Numbered from the stretch's first letter, positions 3 to 5,402 are shown. The stretch is 31,783 nt of DNA from an uncultured Candidatus Saccharibacteria bacterium (GCA_964647525.1 CAZYGB010000001.1:1-31783), one strand, 5' to 3'. The notes: generated by a model from the letters alone, not told the origin. Made by a program: numbers and translations.

Positions 3-266
3 CGTTTGCGTAAGTTGACCGGGTATGAAACTGGGTCGGAAGCATTTGGAAAGAGTAAGTTGCATATCAAGGGTGCGGCGGCGACAAATGTAGATGATGA
101 CTTTAACGAAGCGGTAAAATTTTTGACTATGGCAGTTGATCGCTTTCGTAACGAAAAGAGTCATACATCTGACGCAAAAATAGATGATCCGATTCGTGCT
201 TATGAATATTTGAGATTGAGTAGTCTTGCAATGAATTTGCTCGATAATTCCGAAATTTTGCAATAA
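3..266 (+). CDS. 3' part of a TIGR02391/Ymh-like HEPN-domain protein (truncated by window edge)
   Basis: Frame is open from the window start. It contains RNEKSH (HEPN R-x4-H motif) followed by AYEYLRLSSLAMNLLD, like the C-terminal helix of that family. Confidence 0.6.
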   Translation, partial: RLRKLTGYETGSEAFGKSKLHIKGAAATNVDDDFNEAVKFLTMAVDRFRNEKSHTSDAKIDDPIRAYEYLRLSSLAMNLLDNSEILQ

Positions 267-293
267 AATAAATAATTTTTCTAGAGGTTTTTA

Positions 294-341
294 TATTGAG
301 CCAAAAAGGTTCCAATATCGTTCCATAGCCCCAGCCAGTTT
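294..341. repeat. Cassette-boundary repeat copy 1 (att-like)
   Basis: 302-335 matches 2050-2083 at 31/34 nt; 294-337 matches 4130-4173 at 36/44 nt without gaps. Confidence 0.85.
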
Positions 342-380
342 ACGATTTTAGTGTTTTGTCCCTTTGTTTTGTGTTCTGGT

Positions 381-408
381 TTGGAGATGAATTATTTTTA
401 ATTACACT
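381..408 (+). promoter_or_regulatory. Possible sigma70 promoter for the ydcF-like gene
   Basis: TTGGAG-N16-TACACT between repeat copy 1 and the GTG at 423; weak consensus match. Confidence 0.35.
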
Positions 409-422
409 AATCATATAAAAAT

Positions 423-986
423 GTGAAACAAAAAGAAATCAAAAAAATAACAAATTATATTTTTTTAAAATCTAACCCTCAGAGACAGAAAGCTGATTTG
501 GCTTTAGTTTTTGGCACTTGTCATCCAGAAGCCATAAATAAAACCTATGAATTATACCGGGATAAATTTGTTAACAAGATTTTAATAAGCGGTGGCGTTA
601 ACAGAGTTACCAGTGAAAATGAAGCATTAAAAATGAGTAGAAAATTAATAGATTTAGGCGTTAAACAACAAGATATTATTTTAGAAGACAAATCGACTAA
701 TTCTTTAGAAAATGTTTTGTTTTCAAAAAAAGTTATTGACGAAAAATTTGGTTTTAATAATATTAAAAAGATTATTGCCATTGTTAAGCATTATCATTCG
801 CGACGAGCGTTAATGACATTAAAAAGATATTTTCCCAAGAACATAGAATTAATTCCAGTAACTTATAAGATTTATGGTTTTACAAAAGATAATTGGTTTG
901 AAAATGATATTGGTAAAGAAAAGGTTATTGGTGAATTTGAAAAAATATCAAAATATTTAGACAAGGGAGACATTGAGGAACTATAG
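423..986 (+). CDS. YdcF/DUF218 family protein
   Basis: Motifs ADLALVFG, ILISGG, SEA..M, IILEDKSTNSLEN and YHSRRA are typical of DUF218. Confidence 0.85.
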   Translation: MKQKEIKKITNYIFLKSNPQRQKADLALVFGTCHPEAINKTYELYRDKFVNKILISGGVNRVTSENEALKMSRKLIDLGVKQQDIILEDKSTNSLENVLFSKKVIDEKFGFNNIKKIIAIVKHYHSRRALMTLKRYFPKNIELIPVTYKIYGFTKDNWFENDIGKEKVIGEFEKISKYLDKGDIEEL

Positions 987-1036
987 ATGTTTAAACCTTT
1001 AATTCAATTTTTTAATTTTCTGCACGTCTTTTTTAA

Positions 1037-1136
1037 AATAGATTCTAACATCGTTCCAGAGGGCCAGCAGTCTAGTTTTTTTATTGAGAGATCAAGATAC
1101 ATCAAAATAGCCAAAGAGGCAATTTTTTGGTAGAAT
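1037..1136. repeat. Cassette-boundary repeat copy 2 with promoter-bearing right flank
   Basis: Core AACATCGTTCCA...CCAGC; 1047-1136 aligns to 4150-4240 at about 66/91 nt with one gap. Confidence 0.75.
1108..1136 (+). promoter_or_regulatory. Sigma70 promoter, probably giving a leaderless mRNA
   Basis: TAGCCA-N17-TAGAAT; the ATG at 1143 is 6 nt after the -10 element. Confidence 0.6.
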
Positions 1137-1142
1137 GAAAAC

Positions 1143-1721
1143 ATGAAAGTAAAAATTTTAATTATTTTAGTTGTTTTGACCGGGGTTTGGCTCGGATTGA
1201 GGTTTTTAATCAGCGAATCGCCGGCAGAGCCAATTGCCTGCACAATGGACGCAAAACTCTGTCCGGACGGTTCTTATGTAGCCAGAATTCCGCCGAAATG
1301 CGATTTTGCGCCGTGTCTGGAAACAAAAACAATAAAACTTTATTATTATAATTACGAACTGGACAAAGATGAATCAGGCAATATCGCTTGCAGTAGAAAT
1401 GGATTGGTGGCGGTTGAGAGAGAAATTCCAATAACTCAAGCGCCGATTCAGGATACCATTAAGCTTTTGCTTTCAGGCGAACTAACCGAAGAAGAAAGGA
1501 TTCAAGGAATTGATACCGAATATCCGTTGGAAGGACTTTCATTAAAAGGTGCTTCGTTGAAAGACGAAGTTTTAACACTTGAATTTAATGATCCTAACAA
1601 TAAAACAGTCGGTGGTTCTTGCCGGGTGGGCATTCTTTGGTTTCAAATTGAAGCAACAGCAAAACAATTTTCAGAAGTCCAGCAAGTCCGTTTTCTACCA
1701 GAGGAGATTTTCCAGCCGTAA
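1143..1721 (+). CDS. Membrane-anchored GerMN-domain protein with a Cys-rich CTMDAKLCPDGSYV..PPKCDFAPC motif
   Basis: N-terminal hydrophobic anchor, a four-Cys motif common in CPR surface proteins, and a GerMN-like C-terminus (GGSCRV...QIEATAKQFSEVQQV). Confidence 0.75.
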   Translation: MKVKILIILVVLTGVWLGLRFLISESPAEPIACTMDAKLCPDGSYVARIPPKCDFAPCLETKTIKLYYYNYELDKDESGNIACSRNGLVAVEREIPITQAPIQDTIKLLLSGELTEEERIQGIDTEYPLEGLSLKGASLKDEVLTLEFNDPNNKTVGGSCRVGILWFQIEATAKQFSEVQQVRFLPEEIFQP

Positions 1722-1799
1722 GAAAAACTAAAAGTAAATTATGACCAGAAATAAAAAAATCCTTAATTCAGTAATTATTGTAATTTAAAATTAAAAACC

Positions 1800-1988
1800 A
1801 TGAAAATTTTTAGAACATGGACATTTCGCTGGTGGGAGGTAAGTTTGATTAAGCTCTGCCTCATCTCACTCGGTATTTTATTGGGTCTTTATTTCAACGA
1901 CTACCTCATTGGCCTTATGTGGCTATGGTGGGGACTCTTTGTGATTACTTCAATCTACTTCATCACTCTCTTCATAAAGAAAGGGTAA
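1800..1988 (+). CDS. Small membrane protein, 62 aa, two predicted TM helices
   Basis: ATG start; hydrophobic and Trp-rich; fills the space before repeat copy 3. Confidence 0.65.
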   Translation: MKIFRTWTFRWWEVSLIKLCLISLGILLGLYFNDYLIGLMWLWWGLFVITSIYFITLFIKKG

Positions 1989-2049
1989 CGCTTGTGGTCT
2001 TTTGAAGAAAAAAATAATCAAAATTGCTTTAGAGTAATTGCTGTTTGCA

Positions 2050-2083
2050 CAAAAAGGTTCCAACATTGTTCCACAGCCCCAGC
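2050..2083. repeat. Cassette-boundary repeat copy 3
   Basis: CAAAAAGGTTCCAACATTGTTCCACAGCCCCAGC, 31/34 identical to 302-335. Confidence 0.85.
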
Positions 2084-2138
2084 TAAATGTATTTGAATTT
2101 TAGTACGTAAAATGTCATGTTTGGCGATAAAGTGATGA

Positions 2139-2167
2139 TTGATAGTTTTTGATTTTAATGTTATACT
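2139..2167 (+). promoter_or_regulatory. Sigma70 promoter for typA
   Basis: TTGATA-N17-TATACT with TG upstream of the -10. Confidence 0.65.
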
Positions 2168-2196
2168 TCCAGGGAAGATTAAAGACCGTTTCTTAC

Positions 2197-2234
2197 ATTA
2201 AAAGATGGTCCGATGACCATCTTTTAATTTTTAT
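2197..2234 (+). terminator. Perfect 14-bp hairpin plus T-tract in the typA leader (attenuator-like)
   Basis: ATTAAAAGATGGTC-CGAT-GACCATCTTTTAAT followed by TTTTAT, between the promoter and the start codon. Confidence 0.6.
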
Positions 2235-2252
2235 CGGTATACATTAGAAAAT

Positions 2253-4100
2253 ATGGAAAATACAAATATTAGAAATATTGTTATCATTGCCCATGTTGAT
2301 CACGGCAAGACAACATTGGTAGATGGCCTCTTAAAACAGACCCATACTTTTAGGGATAATCAGATGGAGATGAAGGAAACTCAGATCTTAGACAGCAATG
2401 ATTTAGAAAGAGAAAAAGGCATCACTATTTTAGCTAAAAATACAGCTATTAATTACAAAGGAGTAAAAATTAATATTATTGATACTCCTGGGCATGCTGA
2501 TTTTTCTGGGGAAGTAGAACGAGTGATAAATATGGTAGAGGGTGCTATTTTATTAGTTGATGCTGCAGAGGGGCCGTTGCCGCAAACAAAATTTGTTTTG
2601 CGTAAGGCTTTTAAGAACAATTTAAAGGTTATTTTAGTAATGAATAAAATGGATAGAAAGGACGCTATGCCTGAAGAGATGTTAAAAAAAACTGAAGAAC
2701 TATTTTTAGAGTTAGCGCAAAATGATAATCAGCTGGATTTTCCTGTCATTTATACAGTTGGCCGTGAGGGCAAAGCTTATAATGGTTTGCCTACAGCAAC
2801 GGAACTAGACGGACCAGCTGATTTAACTCCTTTACTTGATGCCATTATTAAATATATTCCTCCTCCATTAGTAGACGCTGATCAGCCATTCAAGATGATG
2901 GTTAATGCCCTTGATTTTGATACTTATAAAGGCAAATATGCTATTGGCAAAATTTACCATGGGAAAATAAATAAAGGTGATTCAGTAAATATTCTAAACA
3001 TTAATGGTAAAATTGGTTCTGGAAAAGTAGAAAATGTTTTTATTAATGAAGGATTGAAACGAATAGAGGTGTCTACAGCTTTGTCCGGAGAAATAGTATC
3101 ATTAACGGGTATTTCTGAGGTAAGGATAGGTGAAACTTTAGCTGCTCCTTCAGTAAAGGAAGCCCTGCCTTCTATTGAATTTGGTCAGCCTACCTTAAAA
3201 GTAGTCGTAGGGGTGAATACCAGCCCTTTTGCCGGTAAAGAAGGAAAATTCTCTACAGCTATGCAAATCAGTGATCGTTTAAACAAAGAAAAAGAAACAA
3301 CGGTTGGTTTAGAGATAGAGCTTAATGAAGCAGGCAGGGGATTTGTAGTAGCAGGTCGGGGAGAGTTACATTTATCTATCTTTATAGAGACATTAAGGCG
3401 AGAAGGATTTGAGTTAGAGATTTCCAAGCCCGAAGTAATTTATAAAACTATTAACGATAAGATATACGAGCCTTTTGAGGAGGTAGTGCTGGAAGTTGGT
3501 TCTGAATACATTGGTTTGATCAATAAAGAAATGACTAATCGTCATGCTGAATTAATTGATATGCGAACAGAAAATAACGGATTAACCAGGTTTCTTTATC
3601 ATATCTCCAGCAGAAACTTTTTAGGTTTTAGAAATGAAGTATTTTTGGCATCTAAAGGTACTGCAGTAATTGCCAGTCAATTTCTAGATTATTTTCCTAA
3701 AGGAGAAAAGCCTGTTGATTTGCGTACAGGAACTTTAATTTCTAGTGAAACTGGCCGAGCCAATTCTTATGGTTTAAATATAGCGCAAAAACATGGTCCG
3801 TTATTCGTTAATGCCGGGGAGCAAGTTTACGAAGGGATGACTGTGGGCATTAATAATCGCGGTAAAAATCTAGAGGTAAATATTTGTAAACCAAAGCAAC
3901 TATCGAATATGCATACTGAACATTCGGATAAGGCAATTATTTTAATTCCTCCAGTAAAATTATCTTTAGAACAGGCTTTGGACTTTATTAACGATGATGA
4001 GCTTTTAGAAGTTACTCCATTAAATATTCGTTTGAGAAAGAAGAATTTGTCAAAAATAGCAAGGGTCAGAGAACAAAGAAAACTTGTAAATAACAAATAA
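2253..4100 (+). CDS. typA: Translational GTPase TypA/BipA
   Basis: AHVDHGKTT, EREKGITI, DTPGHADF, NKMD, GRGELHL and the BipA C-terminal LSLEQAL..INDDELLEVTP..IRLRK. Confidence 0.93.
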   Translation: MENTNIRNIVIIAHVDHGKTTLVDGLLKQTHTFRDNQMEMKETQILDSNDLEREKGITILAKNTAINYKGVKINIIDTPGHADFSGEVERVINMVEGAILLVDAAEGPLPQTKFVLRKAFKNNLKVILVMNKMDRKDAMPEEMLKKTEELFLELAQNDNQLDFPVIYTVGREGKAYNGLPTATELDGPADLTPLLDAIIKYIPPPLVDADQPFKMMVNALDFDTYKGKYAIGKIYHGKINKGDSVNILNINGKIGSGKVENVFINEGLKRIEVSTALSGEIVSLTGISEVRIGETLAAPSVKEALPSIEFGQPTLKVVVGVNTSPFAGKEGKFSTAMQISDRLNKEKETTVGLEIELNEAGRGFVVAGRGELHLSIFIETLRREGFELEISKPEVIYKTINDKIYEPFEEVVLEVGSEYIGLINKEMTNRHAELIDMRTENNGLTRFLYHISSRNFLGFRNEVFLASKGTAVIASQFLDYFPKGEKPVDLRTGTLISSETGRANSYGLNIAQKHGPLFVNAGEQVYEGMTVGINNRGKNLEVNICKPKQLSNMHTEHSDKAIILIPPVKLSLEQALDFINDDELLEVTPLNIRLRKKNLSKIARVREQRKLVNNK

Positions 4101-4129
4101 TTTAATAAAACACAATAAAAGGACTTTTG

Positions 4130-4240
4130 TATTGAGGCAAATAAGATTCAACATCGTTTCATAACCCCAGCCATCCAGTTTTTTTATCAAGAGGCCGAAA
4201 TATATTAAACATTGCCAAGAAAGTGATTTTTTAGTACAAT
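4130..4240. repeat. Cassette-boundary repeat copy 4 with promoter-bearing right flank
   Basis: Left part matches copy 1 (36/44); right part matches copy 2 (about 66/91). Confidence 0.8.
4212..4240 (+). promoter_or_regulatory. Sigma70 promoter upstream of the SAM-I riboswitch and metK
   Basis: TTGCCA-N17-TACAAT. Confidence 0.7.
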
Positions 4241-4261: not shown

Positions 4262-4372
4262 TATTTATCAAGAGTGCAGGATAGGGAACTGACCCGGTGA
4301 TCCTGCCAGCAACCCTTAAGGGCGACTCTCTTAAGAAGGTGCTAAATTCAGTCCTAAATGGGAAAGATAAAA
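4262..4372 (+). ncRNA. SAM-I (S-box) riboswitch aptamer
   Basis: P1 TTATC(AAGAG)...GATAA, P2 with the GGG-AACTGA-CCC hairpin, GCAACC...GGTGCTAA, directly upstream of metK. Confidence 0.92.
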
Positions 4373-4404
4373 GTCATTTTTTTATTTCCTGGGGAATAAA
4401 AAAC

Positions 4405-4433
4405 AAACTCTTTCTCTTTGGGGAAGGGTTTTT
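4405..4433 (+). terminator. Riboswitch expression-platform terminator
   Basis: AAACTCTTTCTC-TTT-GGGGAAGGGTTT hairpin (with G-U pairs) and a T run; its 5' arm can instead pair with the P1 3' strand (4362-4374). Confidence 0.6.
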
Positions 4434-4451
4434 AAATTTAATTAAAAAAAC

Positions 4452-5402
4452 ATGAATGTAAGAACAGCAGAATTTGTTTCACCTAAGCATCCCGATAAAA
4501 TTTGTGATCAGATTGCAGACAGTATCCTGGATGCCTATTTAAAAAAAGACGAATATAGCCGGACAGCAATTGAGGTTATGGGAGGCCATAATTTAATAGT
4601 AATACTGGGGGAGGTTAAAAGCACTAAAGATGTTAAAGAAATCCCCATAAGGAAGATTATTGAATCTATTGTTGGGAATAATTTTAATATTAATATTCAT
4701 TTGGAAGAGCAAAGTCCTGAGATTTCCCGGGGCGTAGATATTGGAGGGGCAGGTGATCAGGGCATTATGGTTGGTTATGCCTGCAATGAAACAAAAAACC
4801 ACATGCCTTTGGAATATGAACTGGCCAGAGATTTATGCCGTAGAATTTATGAAAAATATCCCTATGACGGGAAGACACAGGTAACATTGGAAGGTAACAG
4901 GGTTTTAAAGGTTGTAGCCAGTTTTCAGAATGTAAAAACAGCTGAATTGAAAGACTTGGTTAAATCAATCATTAAATCAGAAGAATATATCATTAATCCG
5001 GGTGGAGATTGGAAAATAGGCGGTTTTGAAGCCGATTCCGGATTAACGGGGAGAAAGTTAGTGGTGGACAGCTACGGTCCCGGAGTGCTAGTGGGAGGAG
5101 GTTCTTTTAGCGGCAAGGATGCCACTAAAGTTGATAGAAGCGGAGCCTATATGGCCAGAAAGATTGCCGTTGATTATTTAAAGAAATACAAAGCTCAAGA
5201 AGTTTTAGTTAAATTAGCCTATGCTATCGGCCAGGAAGAACCTTTAATGAAATCAGTAATCATTGATGGTCAAGAAGAAGAAATAAAGGGTTATGATTTA
5301 AGGCCCAATGGTATTATAAAACTGCTGGATTTAAGGAAACCGATATATGCTCAGACCAGCCAATGGGGTCATTTTGGCAATGGTTTTAAATGGGATTGTT
5401 AA
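4452..5402 (+). CDS. metK: S-adenosylmethionine synthetase, short 316-aa form
   Basis: HPDKICDQIADSILDA, GAGDQG, DSGLTGRK, GGGSFSGKD, KVDRSGAY. Confidence 0.93.
   Translation: MNVRTAEFVSPKHPDKICDQIADSILDAYLKKDEYSRTAIEVMGGHNLIVILGEVKSTKDVKEIPIRKIIESIVGNNFNINIHLEEQSPEISRGVDIGGAGDQGIMVGYACNETKNHMPLEYELARDLCRRIYEKYPYDGKTQVTLEGNRVLKVVASFQNVKTAELKDLVKSIIKSEEYIINPGGDWKIGGFEADSGLTGRKLVVDSYGPGVLVGGGSFSGKDATKVDRSGAYMARKIAVDYLKKYKAQEVLVKLAYAIGQEEPLMKSVIIDGQEEEIKGYDLRPNGIIKLLDLRKPIYAQTSQWGHFGNGFKWDC

What the first reader, a model, noticed from the sequence alone, without database searches (positions are those of the whole stretch)
266..4240. All four repeats encode the same decayed C-terminal peptide on the minus strand
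Seen, minus-strand translations: copy 1 NWLGLWNDIGTFLAQYKNL*; copy 2 KKTRLLALWNDVRIYFKKDVQKIKKLN*; copy 3 *LGLWNNVGTFLCKQQLL*; copy 4 KKTGWLGL*NDVESYLPQYKSPFIVFY*. Differences are largely conservative (D/N, I/V, F/Y) and each ends in a different short tail, which suggests the core is the 3' end of a protein-coding gene. From unverified recall, CPR large serine recombinases end in similar W..LW..VRT(F/Y)F tails. Inference: the att site lies in the recombinase gene's own 3' end, so each integration swaps its C-terminus and leaves a relic. No recombinase gene is in this window.
Basis: partly seen in the sequence, partly recalled or inferred. Interest (0 to 1): 0.75.

Follow-up and report, generated by a model that had tools for sequence, protein, structure and literature searches.

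The report
Serine-recombinase att relics behind tRNA-Gln
The four repeats are left-over attachment-site arms of mobile elements that a large serine recombinase inserts at the end of the glutamine tRNA gene. The same arm also encodes that recombinase's own last 11 or so amino acids, and here the arms separate small acquired gene cassettes in an ultra-small (Patescibacteria) bacterium.

Summary
Observation confirmed. The four copies and their minus-strand peptides are as reported. Two more copies lie just upstream in the same genome.

- The conserved 33-nt block is the P arm plus crossover of the attP of a large Patescibacteria family of large serine recombinases (LSRs).
- In two integrated elements in relatives, the LSR gene runs antisense into the 3' end of tRNA-Gln. 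The same core sits at the far end of the element.
- Joining the two ends in frame gives an LSR ending ...M-LGLWNDVGTFLAQ*. One apparently circular element carries this type of tail intact.
- Most family members instead end in ...DSN.. tails, which are antisense tRNA.
- The window's array starts at the genome's own tRNA-Gln(CTG), 8.2 kb to the left.
- The P arm is 5 nt longer than the tRNA arm, as published for LSR attP versus attB.

Caveats:
- Conservation is at DNA level, equal at all three codon positions.
- No LSR gene is present in this genome.
- Across 93 loci the sites bound about 0.8-kb, mostly single-gene, co-oriented cassettes that recur in different neighbourhoods. That is integron-like, and how they form is not shown.

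This scan has noted the same system on other DNA (54 notes in at least 46 genomes). I found no paper describing it.

The parts
3..266 (+). 3' part of a Hypoth_Ymh-family gene. It is the last gene of the cassette that ends at copy 1 and starts on contig C114.
   Evidence: Pfam PF09509. It is intact at 110 aa on the bridging contig L073.
302..335 (+). Copy 1: LSR attP-type P arm plus the crossover block CAGC.
   Evidence: One mismatch to the 28-nt consensus. Identical to the attR core of the LSR element L033 except for one base.
423..986 (+). Cassette gene, DUF218 family.
   Evidence: Pfam PF02698, E 5e-19.
1035..1068 (+). Copy 2: P arm plus crossover block, decayed.
   Evidence: Five mismatches in the 28-mer.
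1069..1136 (+). 'Long' right flank of copy 2 (1069-1100), followed by a promoter-like -35/extended -10 (1108-1136, ..TGGTAGAAT) that ends 6 nt before the ATG at 1143.
   Evidence: Homologous to the DNA directly 3' of this genome's tRNA-Gln(CTG). The promoter is read from the sequence and was not tested.
1143..1988 (+). Cassette with two genes: a Germane-domain protein (1143-1721) and a 62-aa hydrophobic protein (1800-1988).
   Evidence: Pfam PF10646. ORFs.
2050..2083 (+). Copy 3: P arm plus crossover block.
   Evidence: Two mismatches.
2253..4100 (+). Cassette gene typA/bipA (translational GTPase), here an accessory gene.
   Evidence: Pfam GTP_EFTU and BipA_C. Not found at E<=1e-50 in four 96-100% complete genomes of the same family.
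4139..4171 (+). Copy 4: the most decayed P arm (3 mismatches, a 1-nt deletion, W codon turned into a stop). It is the last, tRNA-distal junction of the array.
   Evidence: No further copy lies to the right in the window.
4172..4240 (+). 'Long' right flank of copy 4 (4172-4203) and a promoter-like TTGCCA-17-TACAAT (4212-4240) ahead of the SAM riboswitch.
   Evidence: About 70% identity to the flank of copy 2 and to the tRNA-Gln(CTG) 3' flank.
4262..5402 (+). SAM riboswitch (4262-4373) and metK (4452-5402): the first genes beyond the last att relic.
   Evidence: Rfam RF00162, 59.8 bits. Pfam S-AdoMet synthetase domains.

Best explanation
The repeat is the P arm plus crossover (attR-type or attP-type junction) of integrative elements moved by a Patescibacteria family of large serine recombinases. 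These elements insert at the 3' end of tRNA-Gln.

In the free, circular element the recombinase ORF runs across attP. The P arm therefore also encodes the enzyme's last 11 or so residues (LGLWNDVGTFL..). On integration the crossover lies within CAGC, at the acceptor end of the tRNA. It joins the recombinase gene to antisense tRNA, giving a new ..DSN.. tail or an early stop, and leaves the P arm, with the native tail codons, at the far end of the insert.

New insertions at the tRNA push older ones outward. This builds a one-directional row: tRNA-Gln(CTG), a 6.9-kb unit carrying a type III restriction-modification system, then five small cassettes that end at copies A, B, 1, 2, 3 and 4.

Shown: the homology, the geometry, the in-frame junctions, the anchoring at tRNA genes, and the re-use of cassettes in different contexts.

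Inferred: that the recombinase acts on these sites, the exact crossover dinucleotide, and that the recombinase-less cassettes were inserted in trans.
For: (a) Own genome. Contig L073 (99.7-99.9% identical) links C68, C48, C77, C114 and C1. It gives the order dnaX, tRNA-Gln(CTG), 6.9-kb unit, copies A, B, 1, 2, 3, with copy 4 beyond its end. Everything is in the tRNA's orientation.

(b) The core resembles the T arm and acceptor end of tRNA-Gln. The flanks of copies 2, 4 and A match the DNA 3' of tRNA-Gln(CTG). The 'short' flank in relatives matches the DNA 3' of tRNA-Gln(TTG).

(c) Two integrated LSR elements (L023, L033) and one apparently circular element (L130) place the core inside the LSR's 3' end, in frame.

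(d) attL and attR share only CAGC or CAGCA. Across 294 sites, conservation ends after CCCCA.

(e) From GGTTC to CAGC the P arm spans 28 nt and the tRNA B arm 23 nt. This matches the published 5-bp shift of the zinc-ribbon-domain motif between attP and attB (PMC3783163).

(f) In 26 loci with a tRNA in view, a same-strand tRNA precedes the P sites. It is tRNA-Gln, or tRNA-Ser followed by a pseudo tRNA-Gln 3' fragment lacking the 5-nt insert.

(g) There are 299 cores in 93 loci and orientation is never mixed within a locus. Median spacing is 810 nt. Of 159 distinct cassettes, 154 have their longest ORF in tRNA sense and 115 hold one gene.

(h) There are 108 homologous cassette pairs between loci; in 30 of them both neighbours differ. 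The M20 peptidase cassette is 93% identical between G017 and G019, with its ends at the repeats and different neighbours.

(i) Distribution is patchy: 7 of 301 genomes of the order, in three families. Summed contig depth over the core is 2400-3400, against about 4-8 for the unique genes of this organism in the same lake metagenomes.
Against: No LSR gene or pseudogene exists in this genome (96% complete, 124 contigs) or in G017, G019 or G021. Only 6 of 93 array loci hold any LSR-like sequence. The enzyme is therefore assigned by association in other DNA.

No significant dyad symmetry was found between the P arm and either common right flank. A canonical two-half-site attP is thus not demonstrated for the cassettes.

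Right flanks are very diverse: 164 of 294 are neither 'short' nor 'long'. A classical LSR would not be expected to ignore that.

No empty attB, circular cassette or excision joint was observed for this genome. Only assembled contigs, not raw reads, were available.
Confidence: 0.82

Rival explanations
1. The array grew by insertion of complete, recombinase-carrying elements. Each later lost its LSR and most other genes by deletion, so the small cassettes are decay products rather than units mobilised in trans.
For: LSR-bearing elements sit next to the tRNA in L023, L033 and L039. A 50-aa LSR N-terminal fragment occurs inside arrays L043, L078 and L092. Dehalococcoides ssrA islands show the same kind of accretion, with some islands lacking the integration module (PMC3146451).
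Against: Cassettes are clean. Median spacing is 810 nt, 72% hold one gene, and each has its own promoter-like flank. LSR-like sequence occurs in only 6 of 93 loci. The same whole cassette recurs between different neighbours, which deletion debris would not do.
Confidence: 0.25
2. The repeats are portable homology. Cassettes are exchanged by RecA-dependent recombination between the 33 to roughly 100-nt conserved junctions after DNA uptake, and the serine recombinase plays no part in the small cassettes.
For: Junctions are near-identical over 33 nt. In 104 of 294 cases the identity extends about 40 nt further, through the 'short' flank. The genomes that hold arrays lack an LSR.
Against: Identity stops sharply at CCCCA in most junctions, with unrelated flanks beyond. 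A 33-nt one-sided homology is a poor RecA substrate. Homology alone predicts neither the strict anchoring at a tRNA B arm nor the single orientation.
Confidence: 0.12
3. The repeat is a regulatory or transcription-punctuation module (a terminator, promoter or factor-binding site with GTTCCA-N5-GTTCCA direct repeats) that spread between intergenic regions and is not a recombination site.
For: It lies between stop codons and promoter-like extended -10 boxes. The 'short' flank holds a hairpin with a T run.
Against: The core itself does not fold: z-scores from -1.0 to +1.25 on both strands. Copies are clustered in arrays behind tRNA genes rather than dispersed. The core is in frame with, and physically part of, LSR genes in three elements. 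It occurs sporadically across families.
Confidence: 0.04
4. It is a classical integron, or a cluster of attC sites lacking an integron-integrase (CALIN).
For: Co-oriented single-gene cassettes of integron-like size carry typical cargo: glyoxalase, NUDIX and DUF proteins.
Against: There is no attC-like hairpin. There is no IntI: each genome has a single tyrosine recombinase of about 320 aa, and in G017 it lies about 25 kb from the large array. Cassettes carry their own promoters. The site is homologous to a tRNA end and to an LSR's 3' end.
Confidence: 0.01

Closest known systems
Dehalococcoides ssrA-specific genomic islands (McMurdie et al. 2011, PMC3146451)
   Same: A CcrB-like large serine recombinase lies on the reverse strand next to attL. 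The target is the 3' end (T-loop region) of a small essential RNA gene. Tandem islands are each closed by a repeat of that end, and a conserved motif just upstream of the repeat does not match the target gene. Some islands lack the integration module.
   Different: Here the target is tRNA-Gln. Units are mostly single genes of about 0.5-1.5 kb rather than multi-gene islands. The conserved block is the element's P arm, not a 20-bp copy of the target. That arm is part of the recombinase's own coding sequence.
Staphylococcal cassette chromosome (SCC/SCCmec) composite islands with CcrAB/CcrC
   Same: Serine recombinases insert elements at the 3' end of a conserved gene. Tandem composites exist, and some units have no recombinase (from my own knowledge and as summarised in PMC3146451).
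   Different: SCC targets rlmH, a protein gene, and its units are kilobases to tens of kilobases. No overlap of the att site with the ccr reading frame is known to me.
Integrons (IntI, attI, attC)
   Same: One-directional rows of mostly single-gene cassettes, each ending in a recombination site. The same cassette is found in different arrays.
   Different: Integrons use a tyrosine recombinase, folded single-stranded attC hairpins and promoterless cassettes. None of these applies here.
Tycheposons and tRNA-anchored islands of Prochlorococcus (bioRxiv 10.1101/2020.12.28.424599)
   Same: Streamlined genomes with islands next to tRNA genes, partial tRNAs at element borders, and newer insertions pushing older ones outward. 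A minority use an LSR.
   Different: Tycheposons mostly use tyrosine recombinases, are larger elements, have repeats that are true partial tRNAs, and show no overlap between ORF and att site.
SSV1-type integrases of archaeal fuselloviruses (from my own knowledge, not checked here)
   Same: attP lies inside the integrase ORF, and integration into a tRNA gene alters the integrase gene.
   Different: That is a tyrosine recombinase whose gene is split in two. Here a serine recombinase keeps about 97% of its ORF and exchanges only its last 11-20 codons.
Model of LSR attP and attB half-sites (Rutherford et al. 2013, PMC3783163)
   Same: The outer motif (here GGTTCSAA) lies 5 bp nearer the crossover in attB than in attP: 23 nt against 28 nt from GGTTC to CAGC.
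   Different: Only one half-site is recognisable here. The expected inverted second half-site was not detected.

Membership tests
Large-serine-recombinase attachment site (attP-type P arm / attR junction) | Physical linkage of the site to an LSR gene at the element border | tested here: met
   Met in related DNA only. L023 and L033 hold an LSR (Resolvase + Recombinase + Zn_ribbon_recom) at the tRNA end and the core at the other end. L130 holds an LSR directly over a related P arm. Not met in the window or its genome.
Large-serine-recombinase attachment site (attP-type P arm / attR junction) | attL and attR share only a very short identity around the crossover | tested here: met
   The shared block is CAGC in L033 and CAGCA in L023. 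Conservation over 294 sites ends after CCCCA.
Large-serine-recombinase attachment site (attP-type P arm / attR junction) | The outer (ZD) motif is 5 bp closer to the centre in attB than in attP | tested here: met
   From GGTTC to CAGC: 28 nt in P arms and 23 nt in four tRNA-Gln B arms. The rule was read in PMC3783163.
Large-serine-recombinase attachment site (attP-type P arm / attR junction) | Imperfect dyad symmetry of the two half-sites | tested here: not met
   The best inverted match of P arm to right flank was 11-12 of 26, no better than shuffles.
Large-serine-recombinase attachment site (attP-type P arm / attR junction) | Recombination by the cognate enzyme | not testable with these tools
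   Needs an in vitro or in vivo assay.
Integron / attC array | IntI-type tyrosine recombinase with an attI site at the head of the array | tested here: not met
   The five array-bearing genomes have one tyrosine recombinase of about 320 aa each, and G021 has one further integrase. In G017 that gene lies about 25 kb from the 32-50 kb array. The arrays start at tRNA genes.
Integron / attC array | The site folds as an imperfect hairpin (attC) | tested here: not met
   DNA folds of core plus or minus flank on both strands gave z-scores from -1.03 to +1.25.
Tandem LSR islands at a small-RNA or conserved gene (SCC, ssrA-GI type) | Successive units in one orientation downstream of the target gene, each closed by an att repeat | tested here: met
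   Own genome: tRNA-Gln(CTG) followed by six junctions. The same holds in 26 further loci.
Tandem LSR islands at a small-RNA or conserved gene (SCC, ssrA-GI type) | Units of island size carrying, at least often, an integration module | tested here: not met
   Median unit is 810 nt and 72% hold a single gene. LSR-like sequence occurs in 6 of 93 loci.
REP / MITE-type dispersed repeat | Palindromic unit dispersed through the genome | tested here: not met
   The core has no fold. All copies in G000 lie in one island, and the 20 copies in G017 lie in four arrays.

The most novel reading that the evidence does not exclude
Patescibacteria have a serine-recombinase counterpart of the integron. Non-autonomous cassettes, mostly single-gene and self-promoted, carry only the recombinase's P arm. 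They are captured and re-shuffled in trans at tRNA-Gln (and at pseudo tRNA-Gln sites behind tRNA-Ser) by LSRs that reside on small circular elements. In addition, the exchange of the LSR's last 11-20 residues on integration (native ..LGLWNDVGTFL against an antisense-tRNA ..DSN.. tail or truncation) acts as a built-in record of integration state that alters the enzyme's activity or directionality.
Probability: 0.35. Interest if true: 0.85.

Novelty: new variant of a known kind. Interest (0 to 1): 0.7.

Why it matters
Ultra-small Patescibacteria have few recognised routes for gaining genes. These arrays show a concrete, widespread gene-capture hotspot, built with an enzyme class not known to make integron-like cassette rows. 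In this genome even a translation GTPase (typA) and a restriction-modification system appear to have arrived this way.

An attP site embedded in the recombinase's own last codons means that the protein differs between the free and the integrated state. That is a testable, unreported way to couple enzyme form to integration state.

The family also offers natural LSRs with a defined tRNA-Gln target and compact sites, which could interest people who use serine integrases as tools.

Tried and rejected
1. Integron attC, REP or terminator reading of the core: rejected, because neither strand folds and Rfam has no match at the cores.

2. Regulatory direct-repeat site (GTTCCA-N5-GTTCCA, response-regulator-like): considered, then dropped once the tRNA and LSR homology appeared.

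3. My own idea that the 'long' flank holds an inverted outer motif (GGGACC), making core plus long flank a symmetric attP of about 53 bp: not supported, since dyad matches are no better than shuffles.

4. Real small minus-strand genes: rejected. Open frames are 16-58 aa, copies 3 and 4 carry stops, and there is no codon-position signal.

5. Search for an LSR in the own genome. The Pfam Resolvase search found nothing. tblastn with 8 LSRs gave only an 18-aa 'hit', which is the antisense of the tRNA-Gln gene itself.

6. Laying public runs. Only Logan contigs were available. The joints listed (for example 335 to 4180 with 8 other letters between) are junctions from other cassettes or organisms that share the core, not excision products of this genome. 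No conclusion on excision or circular cassettes could be drawn.

7. Empty-site (unoccupied attB) comparison for L023 and L033: not attempted.

8. MAFFT placed the 5-nt length difference between P and B arms as an end gap. The position of the indel inside the arm is therefore not fixed by alignment; only the length difference is.


Full report
THE OBSERVATION. The window holds four direct copies of a conserved block. The 28-nt cores lie on the + strand at 308-335, 1041-1068, 2056-2083 and 4145-4171. A 28-mer allowing up to 3 mismatches finds 2 sites, against none in 100 shuffles. A profile built from the four copies finds all four at E 1e-11 to 1e-13. It also finds further copies on contigs C114 (two) and C77 (one, overlapping the start of C114) of the same 587-kb, 124-contig genome, and nowhere else in it. 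Every copy is intergenic, lies just after the stop codon of a + strand gene, and has the same orientation.

THE REPEAT IS tRNA-LIKE ON THE OTHER STRAND. In a relative of the same family (G017) the element occurs 20 times in four arrays. Each copy sits between co-oriented genes. The arrays start just downstream of same-strand tRNA genes.

Read on the gene-sense strand, the core resembles the T arm and acceptor end of tRNA-Gln. Two common right flanks match the DNA that follows genuine tRNA-Gln genes:
- The 'long' flank of window copies 2 and 4 and of copy A on C114 matches the 3' flank of this genome's own tRNA-Gln(CTG) on contig C68.
- The 'short' flank in G017 matches the 3' flank of its tRNA-Gln(TTG).

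A metagenome contig, L073, is 99.7-99.9% identical to this genome and bridges C68, C48, C77, C114 and C1. It gives the order: dnaX; tRNA-Gln(CTG); a 6.9-kb unit (trypsin-like peptidase, type III methylase and ResIII helicase, two unknown genes); copy A; an unknown gene; copy B; a small ORF plus Hypoth_Ymh; copy 1; DUF218; copy 2; Germane-domain protein plus a small membrane protein; copy 3; typA (copy 4 and the SAM riboswitch-metK genes follow in the window, beyond L073's end). The tRNA lies 8.2 kb to the left of window position 1.

THE RECOMBINASE LINK. The core pattern (up to 3 mismatches) occurs in only 7 of 301 genomes sampled from the order, and these fall in three families.

In one of them, G071 contig C55 (locus L023), a 488-aa ORF carries Resolvase, Recombinase and Zn_ribbon_recom domains. 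It reads antisense into the last 13 nt of tRNA-Gln(CTG), ending ..PVMLPG*. The core lies 4.3 kb away at the other end of the insert, and in the recombinase's sense it reads ..LLGLWNDVRTYLTQNCKQY*.

A second case, metagenome contig L033, has tRNA-Gln(TTG) and a 503-aa LSR ending ..STMLRGLDSNQD..*. At the far end of the 7.5-kb insert lies a core identical to the consensus, reading *LGLWNDVGTFLAQ*.

In both cases the two ends share only CAGC(A), and the shared CTG codon is in the same frame. The excised form would therefore encode ..M-LGLWNDV(G/R)T(F/Y)L..*.

The LSR family is large: 3663 proteins at E<=1e-20. Among the best 120:
- 61 end in ..DSN/ESN.. tails, which are the antisense of GGTTCGAATCC.
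- 54 stop earlier, or end otherwise.

P0095 lies on a 6719-nt contig with a 28-nt terminal direct repeat, which is consistent with a circle. That contig has no tRNA, carries a BglII-type restriction-modification pair, and holds a related P arm under the ORF's end.

SITE ARCHITECTURE. From the GGTTC motif to the CAGC block, P arms measure 28 nt and tRNA-Gln (B) arms 23 nt. Rutherford et al. (PMC3783163) showed that in LSR attB sites the zinc-ribbon-domain motif is shifted 5 bp toward the centre relative to attP. The first junction behind tRNA-Ser genes in relatives is a pseudo tRNA-Gln 3' fragment of the short, B type. All later junctions are of the long, P type.

Over 216 distinct copies, the 33 nt that code LGLWNDVGTFL are equally conserved at all three codon positions (entropy 0.38, 0.29, 0.41). 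Conservation ends after CCCCA on one side and near CAAAAAGG on the other. The relics are therefore conserved as a DNA site, and the peptide is a by-product. I infer that the crossover dinucleotide lies within CAGC, probably at the CA; this is not shown. No inverted second half-site could be detected. The core does not fold.

THE ARRAYS. Combining relatives and 80 metagenome loci gives 299 cores in 93 loci.
- Orientation is never mixed within a locus, and the median spacing is 810 nt (IQR 595-1104).
- Of 159 distinct full cassettes, 154 have their longest ORF in tRNA sense and 115 hold a single ORF of at least 60 aa.
- Cargo is miscellaneous accessory enzymes: glyoxalase, NUDIX, HAD, M20 peptidase, aldehyde dehydrogenase, deaminase, DNA glycosylases and DUFs.
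- Many cassettes start with a promoter-like extended -10 (TGGTAGAAT) 6-9 nt before the ATG. This would give leaderless mRNAs (read from the sequence, not tested).
- There are 108 pairs of homologous whole cassettes in different loci, and in 30 of them both neighbours differ. The M20 cassette is 93% identical between G017 and G019, with its ends at the repeats and different neighbours. G014 has the gene at 83% identity with no repeats.
- Only 6 of 93 loci hold any LSR-like sequence. Where a full LSR is present, it sits next to the tRNA.
- In this window, typA was not found in four 96-100% complete genomes of the same family, and metK was found in only one of them. Even these 'housekeeping-looking' genes are accessory here.
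- In the lake metagenomes that hold this genome, summed contig depth over the core is 2400-3400, against about 4-8 for the organism's unique genes. Many different continuations leave the core at about positions 299-303 and 333-336. The core is therefore shared by many junctions in the community.

MECHANISM, WITH WHAT IS SHOWN AND WHAT IS INFERRED. Shown:
- the homology of the core to the tRNA-Gln end and to the 3' end of the LSR gene;
- the in-frame junctions;
- the 5-nt difference between P and B arms;
- the anchoring of arrays at tRNA genes;
- cassette modularity.

Inferred:
- LSR-catalysed attP x attB insertion at the tRNA's B arm, with later arrivals pushing earlier ones outward. Copy 4, the most distal, is also the most decayed.
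- Recombinase-less cassettes are inserted in trans. The alternative is that they are the remains of full elements.

The rivals are a purely homologous exchange between junctions and a regulatory module. They fit the sharp, one-sided conservation boundary and the LSR linkage less well.

COMPARISON WITH WHAT IS KNOWN. The nearest published system I could read is the Dehalococcoides ssrA-specific genomic islands. [quoted passage not shown] SCC composite islands, tycheposons and integrons share parts of the logic.

Three things are different here: the cassette scale (mostly single genes), the tRNA-Gln target, and the attP P arm doubling as the recombinase's own C-terminal codons. Full-text searches for Patescibacteria or CPR with serine recombinase, attP, tRNA, integron or gene cassette found no description of this. 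That library lacks most subscription journals, so absence there is not proof.

Earlier notes of this scan report the same kind of array on other genomes: 54 notes in at least 46 genomes. They agree with my reading, which I reached before consulting them. One of them gave me the Dehalococcoides reference, which I then read.

VERDICT. The relics in this window are conserved as DNA sites at a tRNA-Gln-anchored cassette array, with no recombinase present in the genome.

Noticed in passing
window 4262-4373: SAM riboswitch (RF00162, 59.8 bits) ahead of metK (4452-5402). metK was found in only one of four complete genomes of the same family.
   Followed up: partly
window 2253-4100: typA/bipA sits between two att relics and was not found (E<=1e-50) in four 96-100% complete genomes of the same family. 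In this lineage it behaves as acquired cargo.
   Followed up: partly
window 1108-1142; L013 (G017) many junctions: There is a conserved junction module: a small hairpin with a T run whose stem doubles as a -35-like box, then an extended -10 (TGGTAGAAT) only 6-9 nt before the ATG. This implies leaderless mRNAs for many cassettes. The same module follows the genuine tRNA-Gln(TTG) of G017.
   Followed up: partly
G000 contigs C68, C48, C77, C114, C1 (locus L073): The assembly is broken at the repeats. Metagenome contig L073 (99.7-99.9% identical) shows that these five contigs are contiguous. The Hypoth_Ymh gene, split between C114 and the window start, is an intact 110-aa ORF there.
   Followed up: yes
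L073 5970-11037 (own genome C48/C77): The tRNA-proximal 6.9-kb unit carries a type III restriction-modification system (N6_N4 methylase of 654 aa, ResIII helicase of 840 aa) and a trypsin-like peptidase. It is defence cargo with no recombinase.
   Followed up: partly
L013 10821-11053 (G017) and many 'other' flanks: A second conserved left-flank class (..TATTGAC..-17-..TATATT, then a leader of about 150 nt) recurs at 76-90% identity at several places in five genomes of the genus and in metagenome arrays. Nature unknown: it may be a promoter with a leader, or a small RNA.
   Followed up: no
L043 1559-1705, L078 1431-1577, L092 1095-1241: A 50-aa fragment resembling the N terminus of an LSR catalytic domain (59% identity to P0050) lies inside arrays. 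In L043 it is in the tRNA-sense orientation, opposite to that of intact LSRs next to the tRNA.
   Followed up: no
G017, G019, G002 and metagenome loci: Many arrays start behind tRNA-Ser (GGA, CGA, GCT) rather than tRNA-Gln. A 23-40-nt pseudo tRNA-Gln 3' fragment about 35 nt after the tRNA-Ser appears to serve as the landing site.
   Followed up: partly
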